From an uncultured archaeon (GTDB lineage Archaea > Asgardarchaeota > Lokiarchaeia > Sigyniarchaeales > SOKP01): a DNA stretch of 64,000 bases. Where the stretch lies: the NCBI GenBank assembly GCA_964486045.1, contig CAZALK010000001.1, positions 128,001-192,000 of the forward strand, read 5' to 3'. A program made the translations under genes and the position numbers. Position 1 is the first letter of the stretch, and every line of letters begins with the position of its first letter. The notes beneath the pieces were generated by a model. It had not been told where the DNA came from and did no database searches. It saw only the letters and a program-made list of their open reading frames with translations. This document shows, piece after piece, positions 25,213 to 34,078 of this stretch.

Positions 25213-25737
25213 TTAAGAGGACTGGGATGACTCTGTTCTTTCAAAAATTGTAGATATTTTTGTATTATATATTTTATAAGTGAATCCTTCAGGAATTTCC
25301 TCATCCAAAATTTTGATGAGATTTTTGATTCTATCGGCTTCAGGTTTGAATGATTCATCATATTTATGAAAGTAAATTGAGACTTCAAAAGAATAACCTA
25401 CTGATTTAACTACAGTTAGTATTTCTCTTAAAAAAACTACAGAAATAAAGTATACGTTTTCATCTTGAATATCAATAACATAAATAATCTCATCCGTTTG
25501 AGCAATATATTTTTTCATGTTTAGTTTATATTTCTTTCGATACTGTTCTTGCCCGCCAAAATCCCATAATAAAAATTCTGATGTCTCATCTTCAAACTTA
25601 GAGATCTCTATTTCTGTTGTAGGGATTAAAGAAGTAAAGGATGATAAGTTTGTAATCTTCTGCATTGAAAGAGATATAGATGTCTTCCCACTATTTGCTA
25701 AACCTAATATTAAGACCTTCTTCTTTTTTTTCTCCAT
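25213..25737 (-). CDS. Small Ras-superfamily GTPase (Arf/Rag-like, Asgard type)
   Basis: GLANSGKTS (G1), PT (G2), WDFGGQ (G3), HKYD (G4). Confidence 0.9.
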   Translation of the reverse strand: MEKKKKKVLILGLANSGKTSISLSMQKITNLSSFTSLIPTTEIEISKFEDETSEFLLWDFGGQEQYRKKYKLNMKKYIAQTDEIIYVIDIQDENVYFISVVFLREILTVVKSVGYSFEVSIYFHKYDESFKPEADRIKNLIKILDEEIPEGFTYKIYNTKISTIFERTESSQSS

Positions 25738-26082: not shown

Positions 26083-27012
26083 TTAACTCTTTATTACTTC
26101 AATCAATTTAGGAAAAATTCTTGTATAGTGCGCTGCCAAACAATGAACTCCCGCTATCAACCCTTTTGACTTTAATTCGGTTATAAAAGGTTTAAAAAGG
26201 TCATAATTCAATTGGTCATAGGTTTTTTTTTGTTCTTTTTTATCAGAAACGCTTGTTTTAACTCGTTTCCATCTCTCGAGAATATCTTTTGGGACATCTA
26301 CTCCAGAACCAAACGTATCAAATTCCTTTGCTATAGAATAACTTTTAATGGGAAAAATTCCTAGAAATAAAGGTATATTGTATTTTTTAAGTTCCCTTAG
26401 AAATTCGATTGCAATATCTATATTGCAGACTACCTGAGTTTGAACAAATTCTGCCCCGGCTTCAACTTTTCTGCTAATTTTCAATATCTCAGCCTCCATA
26501 GGATCTGAATTAGGATTAGCCGAACTTCCTACATGGAGTTTCGGAGGATGTTTAATTTCATGACCATTGATTGAGCCTGTATCCACCATTTCCCGTACAA
26601 GTTTTATTAGTGTAGCAGAGTCTAAATCAAAGACTGGTTTCGTTTCTGGGCAATCACCTAATGCAGTATGATCACCAGTAAGAGAAAGAATATTATGCAG
26701 TCCTAATGCGTGGGCACCCATTATCTGCCCAGCGATACCAATTTTATTGCAATCTCTAGTTGTTAATTGCCACACACATTCTAATCCTGCTTCTCTTTGA
26801 ATTATATGAGCAGCTACCATTGAATTAATTGTAACATTTGCATGAGTACTATCAGTTACATTTGCAGCAACAACATAAGGTGCCATTTCTCTTGCTTCCT
26901 GAATCAAATTTGAAAGATCACACGTTTTTTCTGGTTCAATTCTACCAGTTAATACAAATTCTCCCTTTTTAATCGACTCTCCTAGTTTAGAAAAGACTTT
27001 TTTCTCTGTCAT
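26083..27012 (-). CDS. metF: Methylenetetrahydrofolate reductase, MetF subunit
   Basis: NVTD, QLTTRDCN, LSLTGD, VFDLDS, KVEAGAEFVQTQ motifs; directly downstream of metV. Confidence 0.9.
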   Translation of the reverse strand: MTEKKVFSKLGESIKKGEFVLTGRIEPEKTCDLSNLIQEAREMAPYVVAANVTDSTHANVTINSMVAAHIIQREAGLECVWQLTTRDCNKIGIAGQIMGAHALGLHNILSLTGDHTALGDCPETKPVFDLDSATLIKLVREMVDTGSINGHEIKHPPKLHVGSSANPNSDPMEAEILKISRKVEAGAEFVQTQVVCNIDIAIEFLRELKKYNIPLFLGIFPIKSYSIAKEFDTFGSGVDVPKDILERWKRVKTSVSDKKEQKKTYDQLNYDLFKPFITELKSKGLIAGVHCLAAHYTRIFPKLIEVIKS

Positions 27013-27018
27013 CAGCCT

Positions 27019-27684
27019 TTACCTCCAAACTACTTCTCGTTGATGACCTGATTCACTCCAGTTGACAGGATTCCTTAATTTAATAAATAAATCTAATCTT
27101 CCTAAGACTTTCAAACGGTTGAAAATTAATACCCATCCACAATCTATTTCAAAATTCCCAACTTCACATTTACCATGAACCATTCCACCACAAGGCCCAT
27201 TCATCAGTGATTTAGCGCAAGTTGTAATTGGACAAATTCCACCAGTCTCGTTTAGCAAACAATCACCACACCCGTTACAACGTTGGTAAAATCTTCCAAT
27301 TCTCTCCGTCATCCCCATAAATTCAGTATTTGTTGCGATAAACACAGGGATATCTGGATGCATTCTAGAAAGTATTTGAGAAATGCTTGCAACACCTAAT
27401 CCACAACTTAATGTTAATATCGCGTTAATATTTTGCAAATCTTCTTCAATTTTTCGAAAATCCTTCATCATCACTCTATTATCGCATACTTCCTCAGAAA
27501 CCATTGTAACTACTACCTCAAACCCTTCTTGCTCTAGTTTTTTGACAATCTCTTTTGCTCCTTCGGTACCTCCCGTTTGACACATAGCCGCACAATTACC
27601 ACAGGAGACCAACCCAATTTTGTTCATATTCTTTAACACGCCTAAAATCTCTTCAAAAGGCTTTTTTGTTGTTATAATAGTCAT
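27019..27684 (-). CDS. metV: MetV (MTHFR C-terminal-like Fe-S/Zn subunit)
   Basis: CGNCAAMCQTGG, SCGLG, CNGCGDCLL..TGGICPITTCAKSLMNGPCGG...CE...CGW. Confidence 0.92.
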   Translation of the reverse strand: MTIITTKKPFEEILGVLKNMNKIGLVSCGNCAAMCQTGGTEGAKEIVKKLEQEGFEVVVTMVSEEVCDNRVMMKDFRKIEEDLQNINAILTLSCGLGVASISQILSRMHPDIPVFIATNTEFMGMTERIGRFYQRCNGCGDCLLNETGGICPITTCAKSLMNGPCGGMVHGKCEVGNFEIDCGWVLIFNRLKVLGRLDLFIKLRNPVNWSESGHQREVVWR

Positions 27685-28058: not shown

Positions 28059-29729
28059 ATGGGAATTGAGAAATATTTACCAACATTAAAACTAGTTAAA
28101 CCAATAGGTGGTTTTCATGGAGTTTCAGCTATTTTCCCCACATTGAAGGATGTAATAGATTATGAGGAGCATAATATTGTAATAAATCATGGTTACCCAC
28201 GATTTGTAACTCATCCAATAGTTAAGATAATTGAAAATAAATATAAAAAAAAATTTGGGGCAATAGGTGCAATTAGTTGTCACAGCTATGAAGCTGCAAT
28301 TTTCTTAGTTGTCGATTACTGTTTCAGACATGGGAATAAGATATATTTTGATAAGGGGGTACCATTAGAGTTTTATAATATGCTTAATGAAAAATTTCCT
28401 AACCTTGTCAAAAGGACTGAAATGGCAGACGCAAATATATTGTTTATCAAAACTCAAGGAAATAAATTCCAAAATGATGCTAAAGGAAAAATTGTTATTG
28501 GTATTTTAGAAGATATCAATTTAGGAGATGACTTAAAAAACTTAGGATTCAACATAATACTTCATCATGATAAGAAACATGATATTGGGATAATATTAAT
28601 TTTTAGCATAAGATATGCTATGTTAGATATTCTACGAAGGCATTGTGGATTCAATGTGAGTTCTCGAAAATTAATTAAGAAATTTAGATCTTCTAGTGAA
28701 TTAACAAAAGGTTATGATTATAATCTAAGAAAAAGAATAGCAGAATTAGAAAAAACATCCCCAGAATTTTGTTTTTTATATTCATCTGGCATGGTAGCAG
28801 TTTTTAGTTCAATTTTATCTTTAATATCCTCAAAAAAAGGCAAAATTATCGCAATCGGCTCATTGTATGTTGATACTCTTAGAATTTTAGAGAGTTGGCT
28901 TGAAAAGTATGACTTACCTAAACCAGTTTTTATTAGAGATAATTTTGTTGAGAATTTAAAAAACTGTATTGATTTGAATACAGCGGGAGTTATTGTCGAG
29001 ATTCCCTCAAATCCTTTAATTCAATTGGTAGATATCGATGAAATTGTGAGGATTTCTCATTCTAAAGGTGCAAAAGTAATAGTTGATAATACTGTTGCTA
29101 CACCATATAATTTTAATCCTTTCCTTTACGATGTTGATATAGTTGTTCATAGTACAACCAAATTTCTTAGTGGAAAAAACAATCATATTGGTGGAGTAGT
29201 CTTAATTAATGAAGAGGAATTGGAGGAAAAATTCGAAAATTTTAGCAAAATTACAAAATTAAAAATGGATTTCAATGATGTTAAAGTCTTATCTCGAAAT
29301 ATTAGGAGATTTGAAGAACGAATGGAAAAAATAAATAATAATAGTGAAATTGTTGCTAACTTCTTGAATAATCATGAATTAATCAAAAGGGTATATTATC
29401 CATCAATAAAAAATGATCAATATCACCTACTTATGAAAAAGTATCTTAAGGGGGGAAGCGGATTATTAAGTTTTGTTTTAAAGGAATCTACTGAGGAGAA
29501 CGCTAAGAAGTTTTACGATAATTTGCTCCCTCCAATTTTGAAGGGTCCAAGCCTAGGTTCTGAAAAAACTTTATTATGTCCGTATGTCATAATGGCTCAT
29601 TATCATGATTCAAAAGAGGAATTAGAACAACTAGGTTTTGATTTTTATTTGATGAGGATGTCTGTAGGAATTGAACCAGTTGATAAAATAATAAGAAGCC
29701 TTGAAAATGGTCTTAAGAATTTAGAGTGA
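28059..29729 (+). CDS. PLP-dependent cystathionine gamma-synthase-like enzyme, long form
   Basis: SSGM, EIPSNP, VDNT, HSTTKFLSG (PLP lysine), GPSLG, RMSVG; N-terminal VIDYEE...GYPRF extension. Confidence 0.88.
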   Translation: MGIEKYLPTLKLVKPIGGFHGVSAIFPTLKDVIDYEEHNIVINHGYPRFVTHPIVKIIENKYKKKFGAIGAISCHSYEAAIFLVVDYCFRHGNKIYFDKGVPLEFYNMLNEKFPNLVKRTEMADANILFIKTQGNKFQNDAKGKIVIGILEDINLGDDLKNLGFNIILHHDKKHDIGIILIFSIRYAMLDILRRHCGFNVSSRKLIKKFRSSSELTKGYDYNLRKRIAELEKTSPEFCFLYSSGMVAVFSSILSLISSKKGKIIAIGSLYVDTLRILESWLEKYDLPKPVFIRDNFVENLKNCIDLNTAGVIVEIPSNPLIQLVDIDEIVRISHSKGAKVIVDNTVATPYNFNPFLYDVDIVVHSTTKFLSGKNNHIGGVVLINEEELEEKFENFSKITKLKMDFNDVKVLSRNIRRFEERMEKINNNSEIVANFLNNHELIKRVYYPSIKNDQYHLLMKKYLKGGSGLLSFVLKESTEENAKKFYDNLLPPILKGPSLGSEKTLLCPYVIMAHYHDSKEELEQLGFDFYLMRMSVGIEPVDKIIRSLENGLKNLE

Positions 29730-29772: not shown

Positions 29773-30471
29773 ATGGTAGATGTAGAAGAAATTGCTTGGT
29801 CCGTTGAAAAGGATCTTCTCGAAAGAGAGATTATTGTAAAACAACCTTATAGAGATTTGGACAAAAATCAAGATTATTACTTAATATCAACTCCAAACGT
29901 CTTTAAAAAGGATCATATCTTTATTATAGCCTCCGGGCATCCTGAAATTGCCGGAGTTTGGTCAAATACTCTATTAAGTGAAGGGAGAATAGAGGAATCA
30001 AGCATGGAATCCTATTTTAAAGCATTTCATAAAGAAAACTGGGGTTTAGTGGCATTGAATCCACATCTAATTGAGGATGACTTAGTTGGGACAAACTATT
30101 TCAATCAATTAGGAAAAATAATAGAAACATCGAAACCTGAGAGTAAATTCGGATTTATAGGTTTTTCTATGGGTGGTAGGATTATTTATGATTTCTTAAA
30201 TAACAATAAGAGTTTAATAAAGAATGTAATTGCTATTGCTCAAGTAGATCCTGTTATTCAAAGTTTTAATTGGGATAAAATTATCATAAACAATCTCGAA
30301 GACAGAACAATTTTATTTGCATCAAGCACAGACAAATATAGATTTGGGGCTATTGCATCAACAATTTTAAAAATCTCAAGTACTCCGGTAGAGGGTAAAC
30401 ATGGAGCACTTCCAAGTAGATGTTTGGAGAGTATTATCGATTTTTTTAAAACTCAAATCAAAAAATTATAG
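29773..30471 (+). CDS. Alpha/beta-hydrolase-fold protein resembling the Arb2/FAM172A domain
   Basis: AGVWSNTLL...WGLVALNP, GFSMGG, IAIAQVDPV, GKHG...SIIDFF. Confidence 0.75.
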   Translation: MVDVEEIAWSVEKDLLEREIIVKQPYRDLDKNQDYYLISTPNVFKKDHIFIIASGHPEIAGVWSNTLLSEGRIEESSMESYFKAFHKENWGLVALNPHLIEDDLVGTNYFNQLGKIIETSKPESKFGFIGFSMGGRIIYDFLNNNKSLIKNVIAIAQVDPVIQSFNWDKIIINNLEDRTILFASSTDKYRFGAIASTILKISSTPVEGKHGALPSRCLESIIDFFKTQIKKL

Positions 30472-30532: not shown

Positions 30533-31711
30533 CTAACTTTCTTGAGTAGCTCTTGGCCGTTTGTTTATATGTATTTTTTCGAAGATAAAATGGCTCAATA
30601 GATAGCAAAGGATGACTGTTAGAGGAAATACAATGGTGAATTTTATAACAGGTAATATGGGTATAAATGCAAATCCGAGGGATACAAAGACAAGGACGGG
30701 TGGGTGAATTAGGTACATAGGAAATGCGCTAGAAGATAGGTTCTTTAGAATTTTTCCTTGCTTGTTGAATTTTGCATAAAAAATCTTAATTAATACAAAA
30801 ATCATCCCCATAGCTATGACATTTTCTACAACAGCAAATACAAGAGCATGCAAATTAAATCCCCCAAATAAGACACTATAATCTGAAACTATTCCCAGAG
30901 CCATAAAAGCGTATATATAAAATAATACAAACATAACTGCTATTATAATTGACCAGACTTTGACATGATTTCTAGTCATCTTTTCAAACCAATCATATCG
31001 AACAGCAATAACACCAATACTGAACATCATGAGATACGGAAAGAAAAATCCGAATGGGATTCCCAGCGGAAATTTGTCTACAGGAGAGATTAAGCGAATT
31101 AAAAAAGTAGCAAATCCTAAACTAATGGCTAAAAAGAGTAAATAGATATAACTTGGGATTGAAAATTCCTTTTGGATTCGACTTTGCACTGAGTCGATCT
31201 TTGTTATCTGACGCCATAGAGCATAAATAGCAGTAAAAATTAATAAAAGAAAGAGGTACCACATAGGACCAGTTCTTGTAAGAAAACCGATAAATACTTC
31301 CAGTGATTGAAATTGGCTCAAATAAAAATCTATTAAAGATCCTTGTGGTTCTATAATATAAGCCAAAAGAGGATTAATTAGCAAAATATATAAAACGAGA
31401 GGAATACCAAGACGTAGAAGCCGTTCTTTCCAGAATGAGGATGCGCCTTTTTTATCATAACTTTTGGGAGTAAAATACCCACCCATTAGAAAGAATAATC
31501 CCATAAGTGAGGCTTGAAAAAGACCTCCAATTGAGCTTAAAATTGTAAAAAATATAATGCTGAAAAGATCACTTGGTGATGCCTCAATATAATACCACCC
31601 ACCCGACCCACCATAAGTGACCCTCACGTGTTGGAATATCACGAGAATAGTAAATAAGACCTTAATATTATCTAGGAAAAAAAGCTTTGGTTTCTTAGGT
31701 TCTGTATTCAT
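30533..31711 (-). CDS. Membrane acyltransferase family 3 (OpgC/MdoC-like)
   Basis: LDNIK...LVIFQH, MGLFFLMGGYF, ERLLRLGIP, GPMWYL, YLIH; about 10 TM helices. Confidence 0.92.
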   Translation of the reverse strand: MNTEPKKPKLFFLDNIKVLFTILVIFQHVRVTYGGSGGWYYIEASPSDLFSIIFFTILSSIGGLFQASLMGLFFLMGGYFTPKSYDKKGASSFWKERLLRLGIPLVLYILLINPLLAYIIEPQGSLIDFYLSQFQSLEVFIGFLTRTGPMWYLFLLLIFTAIYALWRQITKIDSVQSRIQKEFSIPSYIYLLFLAISLGFATFLIRLISPVDKFPLGIPFGFFFPYLMMFSIGVIAVRYDWFEKMTRNHVKVWSIIIAVMFVLFYIYAFMALGIVSDYSVLFGGFNLHALVFAVVENVIAMGMIFVLIKIFYAKFNKQGKILKNLSSSAFPMYLIHPPVLVFVSLGFAFIPILPVIKFTIVFPLTVILCYLLSHFIFEKIHINKRPRATQES

Positions 31712-31870: not shown

Positions 31871-32953
31871 CTATTTTAAAGCCGGTTCTATTAGACCTAG
31901 ATCGATCATAGTTTGTCCGGTTTCGTACAACGTATCCTTGATGGTATGAGTCTTTAGGCCAAGTTCCTCGCGTGCCCGATCACAATGTGCAAGTGGTGCT
32001 TGGTAGACCTTCCCATATTTTTCGATGATCTTGTGTATTTCACCAGGTGGACCTCCCACATTGATTTGAGGGAACAAATCCTGTAGGTGGGCTTGAAGTT
32101 GCAACGCATCAATTTCTCCTGATTCATCTGTAGCACTCAATTGATAACGCCAGCTATTCTTACAGATATCGTTTTCGATCATTAGCGCCTGAGATTGGCC
32201 AACATCGCGCACGTCAATGATATTCCATAATGCATTCCATTGACGCCCGCAGGGCTTCCCAGCCAGCATACGACCAAGAAACCATTGCCAAGAACCTACT
32301 CGTTCATGCACCCGAGAAAGGAGTGGTCCCAGTACGGTAATGGGACATACAGATATGGCGTCAAAACGACCATCGATCCCAGCAAATCGGTATACCAGGA
32401 GCTCAGTCTCGACCTTGGCCATTGAATAAGCCATCTCGCCATCCTCATCAATTCTCTTTGAAGTCCAGTTCGGGTCATTCTCACGATTGTCCGACGCCCA
32501 ATCTTTCTCAGTGAAGATATAACCAGATGGCATTGGATGATGGATGGCAGAAAAAGAGCTTGTGTAAACGAACCTTTTTACCGTACCCACTTTTTTGACC
32601 GAATTGAGGACGTTTTTAGTGCCGTTTATCGCACCATCATAGATCTGTCGGGGATTATTGGAGCCACCATAACCCATTGGTGTGCCAGCATGAAGCACGG
32701 CACTACAATCCGTGAATGGTTCATCATAACTACCCTCCTCGAGCAAATTTCCGGTAAAAAGCTCCAAATGGCCAGAGTATTCTCCCCCATTGAGTGTCAG
32801 TAAATGTTCAGTCTTATCTGGGTTGTTTAATTCGGTTATACAAGCATGAATAGTATATCCGCGCTTCATCAACGCGATCACCACATGGGAACCTACATAG
32901 CCTGAGGCACCAGTCACCGCAATTGGACCATCCGATGGCGTTACTGCTGGCAT
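31871..32953 (-). CDS. NAD(P)-dependent epimerase/dehydratase (aldehyde reductase / DFR-like extended SDR)
   Basis: VTGASGYVG, YTSS, YSMAK, IDVRDV; GC clearly above its neighbours. Confidence 0.9.
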   Translation of the reverse strand: MPAVTPSDGPIAVTGASGYVGSHVVIALMKRGYTIHACITELNNPDKTEHLLTLNGGEYSGHLELFTGNLLEEGSYDEPFTDCSAVLHAGTPMGYGGSNNPRQIYDGAINGTKNVLNSVKKVGTVKRFVYTSSFSAIHHPMPSGYIFTEKDWASDNRENDPNWTSKRIDEDGEMAYSMAKVETELLVYRFAGIDGRFDAISVCPITVLGPLLSRVHERVGSWQWFLGRMLAGKPCGRQWNALWNIIDVRDVGQSQALMIENDICKNSWRYQLSATDESGEIDALQLQAHLQDLFPQINVGGPPGEIHKIIEKYGKVYQAPLAHCDRAREELGLKTHTIKDTLYETGQTMIDLGLIEPALK

Positions 32954-33235
32954 TTAACCTTCCTCGAATGTCTAAGAATGTAAACTCGAAAAACTCTATT
33001 TATTTTTCTCATCATATTCATCGTATATTTGAATTAATTTATAAATTTATAAATAGGCAAATCTATCATATATTCTCTAATTTTTTATTATTTAAACCAT
33101 AGAAATATCGCTCTGATATTCTTCTTTTTTCTTGAGAACCATTCTATTCTCATTCAATATTGAAATCTAATTCTTTCACCTTTCACAACAACATTTTCAT
33201 ACATTAAAATACTGTTTTGCGTAATACTTCTTATT

Positions 33236-34078
33236 TTACGGAATTTCAACACCTGGAACCTCTACTTTTACGAATTCAATTCTTCCACTTGATCTTTTTT
33301 GCTCGAATAATTGACTTGTGCAAAGAAAAAGGGTTCTTCCATCATCTCCACCCAGAGTGCATGCATACACATTTGTATCTTTTACTTTAATTGTAGAAGT
33401 GATTTCACCCCCTTCCAAAACACGTAAGACTTCTGCTTTGGATGGATTTGCGACCCATATTGCGCCTTCCTCATCAAGACATATACCATCTGGTGTAAAA
33501 TCTTTAATTTCAGCCCAAACTCTTCGATTTATTAGATTCCCTGAATTTTCAATATCAAAAGCAGTGAGTCGTCCTCCTTGGGTTTCTGCAACAATGAAAG
33601 TCTTGCAATCGGGAGTCACGATACATCCGTTTGGAAATAGAAGACCTTCAGCAACAACTTTAGCTTCACCATCCTGAGTGACCACGATGATGCATGTGGG
33701 TTTAGCTGGGGATTCAAGGGATTTAGTGCCCCAATTTCCTATGTAAGTTCGTCCGTTGGCATCAGTTACAGAGTCATTGCAGTTATATTCTGTAAATTTG
33801 CTTAAATCCGCATGAATTTTCAATCCTTCTGGATCTAAACGCATTAGACACCGATTTTGCATTGAAACTATAAGCATCCTCCCATCATTTAAAAAACCTA
33901 ATCCTGATGGCCAATCTTGTATTTGAACAAGATCTTCAGATTCCCCTTTCTCATCGACGGCAATGACTTTTCCTCCAGCAGCATCCGAAAAGAACAACTT
34001 ACCGTTTCGCCATCTAGGCCCTTCAGGGAACTCAAGATCCGATAATAAAACTTTAATCTCCGTTTTCATATTTATCAA
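33236..34078 (-). CDS. SMP-30/gluconolactonase family protein
   Basis: FPEGPRW, CND, FPNG, PDGICLD motifs. Confidence 0.93.
   Translation of the reverse strand: MINMKTEIKVLLSDLEFPEGPRWRNGKLFFSDAAGGKVIAVDEKGESEDLVQIQDWPSGLGFLNDGRMLIVSMQNRCLMRLDPEGLKIHADLSKFTEYNCNDSVTDANGRTYIGNWGTKSLESPAKPTCIIVVTQDGEAKVVAEGLLFPNGCIVTPDCKTFIVAETQGGRLTAFDIENSGNLINRRVWAEIKDFTPDGICLDEEGAIWVANPSKAEVLRVLEGGEITSTIKVKDTNVYACTLGGDDGRTLFLCTSQLFEQKRSSGRIEFVKVEVPGVEIP

What the first reader, a model, noticed from the sequence alone, without database searches (positions are those of the whole stretch)
29773..30471. Stand-alone Arb2/FAM172A (ARB2A)-like protein: candidate eukaryotic signature protein
Seen motifs, in order: YLISTPNVFKKDHIFIIASG-HPEIAGVWSNTLL...SMESYFKAFHKENWGLVALNP...FIGFSMGG...VIAIAQVDPV...KHGALPSRCLESIIDFF. 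These are collinear with human FAM172A as I recall it (FMSEDAL...LMVLIHGSGVVRAGQWARRLI...TQIPFIKRA...GYGVIVLNP...FVAHSYGG...VTAVALTDSV...HELTSWKSFPSIFKFF). Established: Arb2 domains occur in S. pombe Arb2 (Argonaute chaperone complex), in AGO2-associated ARB2A, and at the C-terminus of class II HDACs Hda1/Clr3. Inference: an archaeal precursor of this RNAi/chromatin module that keeps a GxSxG serine and a His, so it may still be an active hydrolase.
Basis: partly seen in the sequence, partly recalled or inferred. Interest (0 to 1): 0.8.

Follow-up and report, generated by a model that had tools for sequence, protein, structure and literature searches.

The report
Prokaryotic Arb2-like serine hydrolase gene
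This Asgard archaeon carries a small, probably active esterase-type enzyme that is a true relative of the eukaryotic Arb2/FAM172A domain, but the family is rare, also occurs in bacteria, and sits among cysteine/methionine genes rather than RNAi or chromatin genes.

Summary
The ORF at 29773-30471 (+, 232 aa) is real and all quoted motifs are present. Homology to Arb2/FAM172A holds. Pfam Arb2 (PF22749) passes its cut-off and outscores generic hydrolase families. An exhaustive phmmer search found only a small prokaryotic family plus animal FAM172A proteins. The high-confidence model has Clr3 and Hda1 Arb2 domains as its two best solved matches. A GxSxG serine, an aspartate and a histidine are conserved in both the prokaryotic family and FAM172A, so an active hydrolase is likely.

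The evolutionary and functional reading is not supported:
- True members occur in only 7 of 400 sampled genomes of the window's phylum.
- They also occur in Planctomycetota, Kiritimatiellia and SAR324 bacteria.
- The tree backbone is unresolved, and AU tests reject neither archaea-with-eukaryotes nor bacteria-with-eukaryotes.
- The genome has no Piwi gene, and its HDAC genes lie far away.

The neighbours point to sulfur metabolism. In the closest relatives the gene ends a cysK-metX-metW-aminotransferase-CGS-like cluster. Two other clades place it beside a MetY-like enzyme or a cysteine desulfurase.

Most likely this is an accessory, lid-less serine hydrolase linked to sulfur amino-acid metabolism. 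The scan noted the same stretch once before, and a similar protein in another genome.

The parts
29773..30471 (+). Arb2-family alpha/beta-hydrolase gene, 232 aa (P0001)
   Evidence: ORF. Pfam PF22749 above cut-off. AF2 model with pLDDT 94.8. Best solved matches are the Clr3 and Hda1 Arb2 domains.
29935..29961 (+). G55...W63 block (SGHPEIAGVWS) after strand 3. It is the family signature shared with the FAM172A HGSGVVRAGQW block and is the probable oxyanion-hole loop (inference).
   Evidence: G55 and W63 are present in 31/33 and 33/33 prokaryotic rows and in 120/120 eukaryotic rows. This region gives the best Pfam Arb2 stretch, residues 32-98.
30166..30168 (+). Codon of Ser132 in GFSMG, the nucleophile elbow between strand 125-131 and helix 133-144
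   Evidence: Conserved in 31/33 prokaryotic and 119/120 eukaryotic rows. Secondary structure. Codon position.
30247..30249 (+). Codon of Asp159 (IDP), just after strand 152-158. Candidate catalytic acid, or a structural Asp.
   Evidence: Conserved in 32/33 prokaryotic and 120/120 eukaryotic rows. It aligns with the D of the FAM172A TDSVH block.
30331..30333 (+). Codon of Asp187, after strand 179-184. Alternative catalytic acid at the canonical post-beta7 position.
   Evidence: Most prokaryotic rows have an acidic residue at positions 185-187. Which acid serves the triad could not be measured, because no model coordinates were available.
30400..30402 (+). Codon of His210, after the last strand (203-206). 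Catalytic histidine position.
   Evidence: Conserved in 33/33 prokaryotic rows and 101/120 eukaryotic rows, 13 of the rest being gaps.
28059..29729 (+). Upstream same-strand gene, 44 bp away: a 556-aa Cys/Met-metabolism PLP enzyme of the cystathionine gamma-synthase/lyase family, with an unassigned N-terminal extension of about 220 aa
   Evidence: Pfam PF01053 at 254 bits over residues 222-553. NCBIfam CGS and methionine gamma-lyase families match but below their cut-offs. The same gene directly precedes the Arb2-like gene in L001, L012 and L058.
26083..27684 (-). Divergent metF-like (MTHFR, 309 aa) and MetV-like (DUF5981, 221 aa) genes
   Evidence: Pfam PF02219 at 113.9 bits and PF12225 at 112.6 bits.
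30533..31711 (-). Convergent downstream gene: membrane acyltransferase-3 family, 392 aa. Not conserved next to the homologues.
   Evidence: Pfam PF01757 at 100.9 bits. It does not appear among the recurring neighbours.

Best explanation
The gene encodes a minimal, lid-less alpha/beta-hydrolase that belongs to the Arb2 domain family (Pfam PF22749). This family also holds FAM172A/ARB2A and fission-yeast Arb2, and is related to the C-terminal domain of Hda1/Clr3. Unlike the Hda1/Clr3 domain, this protein keeps a nucleophile-elbow serine (Ser132 in GFSMG). It also keeps a histidine after the last strand (His210) and a conserved acid (Asp159, or Asp187).

It most likely works as a soluble serine hydrolase: an esterase, thioesterase or amidase. 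It lacks the eukaryote-specific N-terminal extension and the NLS loop of FAM172A. It is a rare accessory gene found in a few Asgard archaea, PVC bacteria and SAR324 bacteria.

In the window's clade it is probably co-transcribed with a long cystathionine-gamma-synthase-like PLP enzyme. In close relatives it is the last gene of a cysK-metX-metW-(class-V aminotransferase)-(CGS-like) cluster. My best guess is therefore that it hydrolyses an acylated or thioester intermediate or by-product of cysteine/homocysteine metabolism. Examples are an O-acetylated amino acid, homocysteine thiolactone or a sulfur-carrier adduct.

Shown: the gene, family membership, the fold, residue conservation, the distribution and the neighbourhoods. 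Inferred: catalytic activity, co-transcription and the substrate class.
For: Family membership:
- Pfam Arb2 scores 33.1 bits against a cut-off of 26.8. The best generic family, Abhydrolase_1, scores 21.5 and is below its own cut-off. 17 of 20 family members hit Arb2.
- An exhaustive phmmer search of 1.84 billion representatives returns 34 hits. All are about 230-250-aa prokaryotic relatives plus three eukaryotic sequences, two of them named FAM172A-like or Arb2-domain proteins and the third unnamed. No generic esterases appear.
- hhalign against FAM172A gives probability 98.8 and E 6.7e-17 over 228 columns end to end. A control against generic Asgard hydrolases aligns only 123 central columns.
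- The FAM172A profile in turn hits the Clr3 Arb2 domain at E 1.4e-8.

Fold:
- The model has pLDDT 94.8.
- Clr3 (Z 18.6) and Hda1 Arb2 (Z 17.7) rank 1 and 2 of 48,161 chains and align from residue 1. Generic hydrolases align only from about residue 17-21.
- Foldseek's top hit is Hda1 Arb2.
- In the ESM Atlas, rows 1-6 are all Arb2 clusters (TM 0.78-0.93). Generic hydrolases reach TM 0.74 at most.
- 26 of the 30 nearest language-model clusters are Arb2.

Activity: Ser132, Asp159 and His210 are conserved in 31/33, 32/33 and 33/33 prokaryotic rows, at canonical secondary-structure positions.

Sulfur-amino-acid link:
- The window has a CGS-like PLP gene 44 bp upstream and divergent metF/metV genes.
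- L001 and L058 carry cysK (453 bits), metX (471), metW (193), a class-V aminotransferase, the CGS-like gene and then the Arb2-like gene, all on one strand with short gaps.
- The CGS-like and Arb2-like genes stay paired in this genome even though metW and the aminotransferase lie on another contig.
- A MetY-like gene is the divergent neighbour in L062.
- A NifS/IscS-like cysteine desulfurase lies directly downstream in 7 SAR324/delta loci.
Against: - The structural margin of Arb2 domains over generic hydrolases is small: Z 18.6 and 17.7 against 17.4, and Foldseek E 4e-8 against 1e-7.
- A profile of the prokaryotic family alone does not reach Hda1 or Clr3 by sequence.
- Triad geometry could not be measured, and the identity of the acid is ambiguous.
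- The neighbourhood is not conserved across all clades. PVC loci have oxidoreductases, MgtE and peroxiredoxin. Heimdall-type loci have TnpB, an MFS transporter and a histidine kinase. The P0030 locus has a molybdopterin enzyme.
- The long CGS-like gene is found in 11 of 135 genomes of the family, but only 2 of them have the Arb2-like gene. The pairing is therefore not obligatory.
- No experimental data exist for any member.
Confidence: 0.6

Rival explanations
1. Vertical ancestor: the Asgard protein represents the lineage from which the eukaryotic Arb2 domain was inherited, so it is a true eukaryotic signature protein.
For: - Homology to eukaryotic Arb2 proteins is real.
- The family is present in at least two Asgard lineages: the window's family, and family f13 with a Heimdallarchaeaceae sequence.
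- A tree holding archaea and eukaryotes together is not rejected (p-AU 0.35).
- The prokaryotic proteins are the simpler form, without the NLS loop or the N-terminal extension.
Against: - Only 7 of 400 genomes of the phylum have it, and 3 of 54 in the window's own genus, although many genomes without it are over 95% complete.
- Bacterial members exist in three phyla, and 72% of the Atlas cluster members with a known taxon are bacterial.
- The archaeal rows are not one clade in the best tree, and eukaryotes attach to an unresolved backbone by a very long branch.
- A tree holding bacteria and eukaryotes together is equally unrejected (p-AU 0.22).
- Only animal sequences could be sampled for eukaryotes.
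Confidence: 0.2
2. Transfer from eukaryotes: a eukaryotic Arb2/FAM172A-like gene entered a sediment prokaryote, was trimmed to its core, and then spread patchily among Asgard archaea, PVC bacteria and SAR324.
For: - The distribution across unrelated prokaryotic phyla is very sparse and patchy: 7/400, 1/401 and 8/88.
- One Heimdall-type copy lies beside a TnpB/IS605 element.
- The family is broad in eukaryotes, with Atlas clusters from arthropods, oomycetes, ascomycetes and basidiomycetes.
Against: - Prokaryotes form one clan, separated from all sampled eukaryotes by a long, fully supported branch, rather than nesting among them.
- Prokaryotic members differ by up to about 75% from one another and form deep clades, which suggests age.
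- They are embedded in ordinary operons and have host-like GC.
Confidence: 0.12
3. Non-catalytic adaptor: like the Hda1/Clr3 Arb2 domain, the protein is a binding scaffold, for example a partner of the neighbouring PLP enzyme, and does not hydrolyse anything.
For: - The closest solved structures are non-catalytic Arb2 domains that bind histones and dimerise (PMC5036196; PMC11878206).
- One archaeal branch (L014, identical to P0047) has lost the serine (AYGIGA) yet stays an open frame.
Against: - Ser, Asp and His are kept in nearly all prokaryotic members across deep divergence. Hda1/Clr3 are described as lacking a triad (PMC11878206), and Clr3 shows GGGKA at the elbow in the alignment.
- The eukaryotic insertions tied to dimerisation and nuclear import (PMC10205598) are absent.
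Confidence: 0.1
4. Generic esterase: the resemblance to Arb2 reflects only the shared alpha/beta-hydrolase fold, not a specific relationship.
For: - Many esterases score close behind in the structure searches.
- A profile search of PDB sequences hits only esterase nucleophile elbows, weakly.
- hhalign against generic Asgard hydrolases also gives E 5e-15.
Against: - The Pfam gathering threshold is passed for Arb2 only.
- phmmer hits outside the family are FAM172A-type proteins only.
- Only FAM172A aligns end to end, including the N-terminal helix and the G..AG.W block.
- The Atlas searches by structure and by sequence features clearly separate Arb2 clusters from generic hydrolases.
- In Asgard genomes, true members score 189 bits or more against the family profile, and generic hydrolases 35 bits or less.
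Confidence: 0.05

Closest known systems
FAM172A / ARB2A (animals; Pfam PF22749 Arb2 domain)
   Same: - Collinear over the whole 232 aa (hhalign probability 98.8, 228 columns).
- Shares the G..AG.W block, the LNP(H/N) strand, the GxSxG-type elbow with Ser, the (I/T)D(P/S) motif and the C-terminal His.
- Predicted folds are close: TM 0.84 to the CG10038 cluster.
   Different: - FAM172A is about 300-420 aa. It has an N-terminal extension and a long loop carrying a bipartite NLS and CK2 sites that splits the domain (PMC10205598). That loop falls between residues 108 and 109 here and is absent.
- FAM172A acts with AGO2 and CHD7 in the nucleus. This protein sits in a Cys/Met gene cluster, in a genome without a Piwi gene.
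- Sequence identity is only about 17-24%.
Arb2 domain of class II histone deacetylases Hda1 (5J8J) and Clr3 (5IKK)
   Same: These are the best solved structural matches: Z 18.6 and 17.7, 208 residues aligned, rmsd 3.2-3.3, covering residues 1-230 including the N-terminal helix. They are also the Foldseek top hit and rank 6.
   Different: - Those domains are fused to an HDAC domain. They lack the catalytic triad and carry a protruding arm that mediates dimerisation and histone binding (PMC5036196, PMC11878206).
- This protein stands alone, keeps Ser/Asp/His, and is shorter.
- The prokaryotic profile does not reach them by sequence.
Small lid-less serine hydrolases of the alpha/beta-hydrolase superfamily (for example dienelactone hydrolase 2O2G, ABHD10 6NY9, feruloyl esterases, kynurenine formamidase 4E15, valacyclovir hydrolase BPHL 2OCG)
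   Same: Same core fold, a nucleophile elbow and a histidine after the last strand. Z is 15-17.4. This is what the protein probably works like.
   Different: They lack the Arb2-type N-terminal helix and strand pairing (alignments start at residue 17-21). They also lack the G..AG.W signature, and no Pfam family of these types passes its cut-off.
MetX/MetW-MetY direct sulfhydrylation gene clusters
   Same: Relatives of this gene lie in one same-strand cluster with equivalog-level cysK, metX and metW, plus CGS/OAH-sulfhydrylase-family PLP enzymes.
   Different: To my knowledge no Arb2-type hydrolase is part of the described pathway. MetX itself is a different, lidded alpha/beta hydrolase of about 375 aa. 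The role of the extra hydrolase is inferred, not known.

Membership tests
Arb2 domain family (Pfam PF22749) | Scores above the curated Pfam gathering threshold | tested here: met
   33.1 bits against a cut-off of 26.8, E 4.7e-8. 17 of 20 relatives also match. The genome scan gives 33.8 bits in frame.
Arb2 domain family (Pfam PF22749) | Specific sequence relationship to bona fide members (FAM172A), beyond the general alpha/beta-hydrolase signal | tested here: met
   The phmmer hits outside the family are three eukaryotic sequences, two named FAM172A-like or Arb2-domain proteins (E 2.7e-4 to 8e-4 in 1.84 billion proteins). hhalign gives E 6.7e-17 over 228 columns, against 123 columns for generic hydrolases.
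Arb2 domain family (Pfam PF22749) | Arb2-type fold: alpha/beta-hydrolase core plus an N-terminal helix and extra strands, as in Hda1/Clr3 | tested here: met
   Clr3 and Hda1 rank 1 and 2 of 48,161 chains and align from residue 1. Atlas rows 1-6 are all Arb2 clusters. The margin over esterases is modest.
FAM172A/ARB2A orthologue group | Domain split by a bipartite NLS/CK2 loop, plus an N-terminal extension | tested here: not met
   The FAM172A insertion falls between residues 108 and 109 and is absent here. The N-terminal roughly 100 residues of FAM172A have no counterpart (PMC10205598). The protein is therefore filed under the domain family, not as a FAM172A orthologue.
Arb2 as an RNAi/chromatin module | Association with Argonaute, a class II HDAC or histones | tested here: not met
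   No Piwi domain in the 99% complete genome. Its HDAC-family genes are on other contigs or at least 150 kb away. Neighbours are metabolic in all 19 loci examined. Physical binding was not tested.
Catalytic serine alpha/beta hydrolase | GxSxG nucleophile elbow between a strand and a helix | tested here: met
   G130-F-S132-M-G134, between strand 125-131 and helix 133-144. The Ser is in 31/33 prokaryotic rows.
Catalytic serine alpha/beta hydrolase | Histidine after the last core strand, and an acid after strand 6 or 7 | tested here: met
   His210 is in 33/33 rows, after strand 203-206. Asp159 is in 32/33 rows, after strand 152-158. Most rows have an acidic residue at 185-187.
Catalytic serine alpha/beta hydrolase | Triad residues within hydrogen-bonding geometry; measurable activity | not testable with these tools
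   Model coordinates are not returned by the tools, and no biochemical data exist.
Eukaryotic signature protein of Asgard archaea | Among prokaryotes, restricted to or strongly enriched in Asgard archaea | tested here: not met
   Members occur in Pirellulales, Sedimentisphaerales, Kiritimatiellia, Deltaproteobacteria TL4 and SAR324. SAR324 phylum: 8/88. Asgard phylum: 7/400. Bacteria make up 72% of the Atlas cluster members with a known taxon.
Eukaryotic signature protein of Asgard archaea | Asgard sequences are sister to eukaryotes in a phylogeny | tested here: inconclusive
   The backbone is unresolved. AU tests give p 0.35 for archaea with eukaryotes and p 0.22 for bacteria with eukaryotes. 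Only animals were sampled for eukaryotes.

The most novel reading that the evidence does not exclude
The eukaryotic Arb2 domain is the scaffold in FAM172A/ARB2A, fission-yeast Arb2 and class II HDAC tails. On this reading it descends from an ancient prokaryotic serine hydrolase tied to thiol or sulfur amino-acid metabolism, which the archaeal ancestor of eukaryotes already carried. Because FAM172A keeps the same Ser-Asp-His residues (119/120, 120/120 and 101/120 rows), FAM172A itself would still be an enzyme whose substrate could be guessed from the prokaryotic operons.
Probability: 0.15. Interest if true: 0.7.

Novelty: new variant of a known kind. Interest (0 to 1): 0.45.

Why it matters
The Arb2 domain is known from eukaryotic gene-silencing and chromatin proteins and from the CHARGE-syndrome-associated protein FAM172A. 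No biochemical activity has been assigned to it, and its structurally studied representatives are dead hydrolases. A minimal prokaryotic form shows where the domain comes from in fold and sequence terms. It keeps the catalytic residues and lies in recognisable Cys/Met operons, so it offers a tractable protein for asking what an active Arb2 domain hydrolyses. That question also applies to FAM172A, which keeps the same residues. As evidence on eukaryote origins it is weak, because the family is rare in Asgard archaea, is shared with bacteria, and has an unresolved phylogeny. I found no paper describing prokaryotic Arb2 homologues, although automatic Pfam annotation already tags them.

Tried and rejected
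- **PDB by sequence.** The single protein and the prokaryotic profile gave only weak esterase-elbow hits (E 0.04 or worse) and a chance fimbrial match. Hda1 and Clr3 were not reached directly. The link to them goes through FAM172A and through structure.
- **NCBIfam.** Nothing meaningful.
- **Rfam on the window.** No matches.
- **The search for related loci with the wide alignment A3.** It failed for lack of conserved stretches. The run with A1 uses only two peptide patterns, so its 8 loci undercount the family.
- **Homologue searches for eukaryotes.** The search with the mixed alignment was capped by candidate number and added only one eukaryote. The FAM172A search returned animals only. Fungal, oomycete and plant Arb2 sequences could therefore not be put in the tree.
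- **AU tests.** Three groupings were tested and none was rejected.
- **Rooting with generic hydrolases.** Considered and not done, because of the expected long-branch attraction to the eukaryotic stem.
- **A universally conserved neighbour.** None exists. All-against-all BLAST of the flanking ORFs of 19 loci shows only clade-specific partners.
- **Co-occurrence of the long CGS-like gene with the Arb2-like gene.** Weak: 2 of 11 genomes.
- **Intergenic 44 bp.** It has an AAGGAG about 19 nt from the ATG and an AT-rich TATA-like run. Neither is decisive in a 31% GC genome, so co-transcription remains an inference.
- **Literature.** No paper combines Arb2 or FAM172A with Asgard or archaea in a relevant way.
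Full report
**Observation.** The window holds one ORF at exactly 29773..30471 on the + strand, with an ATG start, encoding 232 aa. Nineteen full-length homologues align from residue 1, which supports the start codon. The gene's GC (0.318) matches the window's (0.315).

**Organism.** One homologue is named after a Promethearchaeota archaeon, and the closest genome locus is a Promethearchaeota MAG. The assembly is 5.18 Mb, 99% complete, and carries a single copy. An Arf/Gtr1-type small GTPase lies nearby, so this is a real Asgard contig and not a mis-binned bacterial one.

**Family membership by sequence.**
- Pfam Arb2 (PF22749) scores 33.1 bits against a curated cut-off of 26.8. The best generic family, Abhydrolase_1, scores 21.5, below its cut-off of 25.8. 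NCBIfam gives nothing useful.
- An exhaustive phmmer search of 1.84 billion representatives returned only 34 hits at E up to 0.001. They are a set of about 230-250-aa prokaryotic proteins plus three eukaryotic sequences. One is a Paralvinella Arb2-domain protein, one is a Priapulus FAM172A-like protein, and one is an unnamed 862-aa tandem form. No ordinary esterase appears.
- A profile of 20 prokaryotic members aligns with a profile of 16 animal FAM172A proteins at probability 98.8 and E 6.7e-17, over 228 columns end to end. A control profile of generic Asgard alpha/beta hydrolases aligns over only 123 central columns.
- The FAM172A profile hits the Clr3 Arb2 domain at E 1.4e-8 and Hda1 at E 0.008. 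Esterases come in at E 0.03 or worse.
- The prokaryotic profile alone does not reach Hda1 or Clr3 by sequence.

**Family membership by structure.**
- The AlphaFold2 model is confident (pLDDT 94.8, pTM 0.93). It shows a lid-less eight-stranded alpha/beta-hydrolase core preceded by an N-terminal helix.
- An exhaustive structural alignment against 48,161 chains ranks Clr3 (Z 18.6) and the Hda1 Arb2 domain (Z 17.7) first and second. Both align 208 residues starting at residue 1. Generic hydrolases follow closely (Z 17.4 or less) but align only from about residue 17-21.
- Foldseek's top hit is also Hda1 Arb2, with Clr3 in the top six, again with esterases close behind.
- Against the ESM Atlas the separation is clearer. 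The six nearest family sets are all Arb2: a prokaryotic cluster at TM 0.93, FAM172 CG10038 at 0.84, then Arb2-kinase, Arb2-syntaxin-18, an HDAC tail and Atg29-Arb2. Generic hydrolases reach 0.74 at most.
- The language-model search agrees, with 26 of the 30 nearest clusters being Arb2.
- I therefore accept membership of the Arb2 domain family. I do not accept orthology with FAM172A. The NLS/CK2 loop that splits the FAM172A domain (PMC10205598) would fall between residues 108 and 109 and is missing, as is the N-terminal extension.

**Is it likely to be catalytic?**
- Ser132 sits in GFSMG between strand 125-131 and helix 133-144, a textbook nucleophile elbow. His210 follows the last strand. Asp159 follows strand 152-158, and Asp187 follows strand 179-184.
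- Across 33 prokaryotic rows, Ser, Asp159 and His are present in 31, 32 and 33. Across 120 animal FAM172A rows they are present in 119, 120 and 101, and 13 of the remaining rows are gaps.
- The Hda1/Clr3 domains are described as lacking a triad (PMC11878206), and Clr3 shows GGGKA at the elbow.
- The prokaryotic family therefore looks like the active form of the fold.

**Distribution.**
- With the family profile, true members score 189 bits or more and generic hydrolases 35 bits or less, so the two are easy to separate.
- In 400 sampled genomes of the window's phylum, only 7 have a true member. Three of 54 are in the window's genus, one is in a sister genus, and three are in another family (f13). 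Many of the genomes without it are over 95% complete. A named Heimdallarchaeaceae sequence groups with the f13 set.
- Bacterial members occur in Pirellulales, Sedimentisphaerales, another Planctomycetota MAG, Kiritimatiellia, Deltaproteobacteria TL4 and SAR324.
- Sampling gives 1 of 401 genomes in the Planctomycetota phylum and 8 of 88 in the SAR324 phylum.
- The Atlas cluster is 72% bacterial among members with a known taxon.

**Phylogeny.**
- I built a 46-row maximum-likelihood tree (LG+C20+F+G4). Animal FAM172A forms one clan (100/100) on a very long stem.
- All prokaryotes sit on the other side in well-supported clades: two Promethearchaeota clades, one f13/Heimdall clade, one PVC clade and one SAR324/delta clade. 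The order of these clades is unresolved.
- AU tests do not reject archaeal monophyly (p 0.22), archaea with eukaryotes (p 0.35) or bacteria with eukaryotes (p 0.22).
- The data therefore neither support nor refute an archaeal origin of the eukaryotic domain. They also do not show the archaeal genes nested inside a bacterial clade.

**Genomic context.**
- In the window the gene lies 44 bp after a same-strand 556-aa PLP enzyme of the cystathionine gamma-synthase/lyase family. That enzyme has an unassigned extension of about 220 aa at its N-terminus. Upstream of the pair, divergently oriented, are metF-like and MetV-like genes. A membrane acyltransferase converges downstream.
- In the closest relatives (L001 from MAG LW60_5, and L058/L059 at 65% identity) the gene is the last of six same-strand, tightly spaced genes. 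These are cysK (453 bits, cut-off 351), metX (471, cut-off 331), metW (193, cut-off 189.5), a class-V aminotransferase of the cysteine-desulfurase family, the long CGS-like enzyme, and the Arb2-like gene.
- In this genome metW and the aminotransferase lie on contig 2, while the CGS-like and Arb2-like genes have stayed together on contig 1.
- In an unrelated clade (L062) a MetY-like O-acetylhomoserine sulfhydrylase is the divergent neighbour.
- In seven SAR324/delta loci a NifS/IscS-like cysteine desulfurase follows directly.
- PVC loci carry disulfide oxidoreductase, peroxiredoxin-thioredoxin and nitroreductase genes.
- Heimdall-type and some other loci show no such theme. Their neighbours are TnpB/IS605, an MFS transporter, a histidine kinase and a molybdopterin enzyme.
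- The long CGS-like gene occurs in 11 of 135 genomes of the family, but only two of them have the Arb2-like gene.
- The genome has no Piwi domain, and its HDAC-family genes are far away.

**Interpretation.** The best-supported reading is an accessory, lid-less serine hydrolase of the Arb2 family. In several independent lineages it has been recruited next to cysteine/homocysteine-handling PLP enzymes. A plausible chemistry is hydrolysis of an O-acyl, thioester or thiolactone derivative in that metabolism. This step is inference from neighbourhoods only.

The 'archaeal precursor of an RNAi/chromatin module' and the 'eukaryotic signature protein' label are not supported by distribution, phylogeny or context.

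**Novelty.** Automatic Pfam annotation already marks these proteins as PF22749. I found no paper describing prokaryotic Arb2 homologues. I rate it a new variant of a known kind, of moderate interest. Its main value is as a handle on what an active Arb2 domain does, a question that extends to FAM172A.

**Earlier notes in this scan.** The scan had noted this same stretch before. It had also noted an Arb2/FAM172A-like hydrolase in another genome, said to lie in a defence island. I did not test the latter.

Noticed in passing
window 28059-28718 (+): The first roughly 220 aa of the 556-aa CGS-family PLP enzyme match no Pfam family. They contain a GYPRF..HP stretch that resembles the N-terminal part of the same enzyme family (from memory), so this may be a degenerate partial duplication. 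This long form is an accessory gene, found in 11 of 135 genomes of the family.
   Followed up: partly
G000 contig C2:58000-62154 (L073, L065): metW and a class-V aminotransferase, with an upstream ORF in the position metX occupies in relatives (not scanned here), lie on contig 2. The last two genes of the relatives' six-gene cluster lie in this window on contig 1, so the Cys/Met cluster is split in this genome.
   Followed up: partly
window 25216-25737 (-): A 174-aa small GTPase matching the Arf, Gtr1/RagA and SRPRB families, typical of Asgard genomes. A similar Arf/Gtr1 gene lies near the homologue in L058.
   Followed up: no
window 32001-34000: GC rises to 0.41 against about 0.31 elsewhere, over an NAD-dependent epimerase/dehydratase gene and an SMP-30/gluconolactonase-like gene. 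This may be foreign DNA.
   Followed up: no
L060:1250-2548: In a Heimdallarchaeaceae-type contig, the Arb2-like gene is followed directly by an OrfB_IS605/Cas12f-like TnpB gene. A second contig with the same protein has a DDE transposase nearby. This hints at mobility of the gene.
   Followed up: no
L014 (G014:C14), identical to P0047: One archaeal family member has lost the nucleophile serine (AYGIGA in place of GFSMG) and sits on a very long branch (2.4 changes per site), yet remains an open frame. It may be a pseudo-enzyme.
   Followed up: no
P0065 (862 aa, MetaClust): A eukaryote-like protein with two tandem Arb2/FAM172A-like units separated by a charged linker. Both units have Gly in place of the serine (AHGGGG).
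   Followed up: no
L006:4366-5976 and L008:4414-5070: In the SAR324/delta loci the Arb2-like and cysteine-desulfurase genes are flanked by a 4'-phosphopantetheinyl transferase. In L006 they are also flanked by a type-B carboxylesterase, a U32 peptidase and a radical-SAM-like gene. This may be a small biosynthetic cluster.
   Followed up: no
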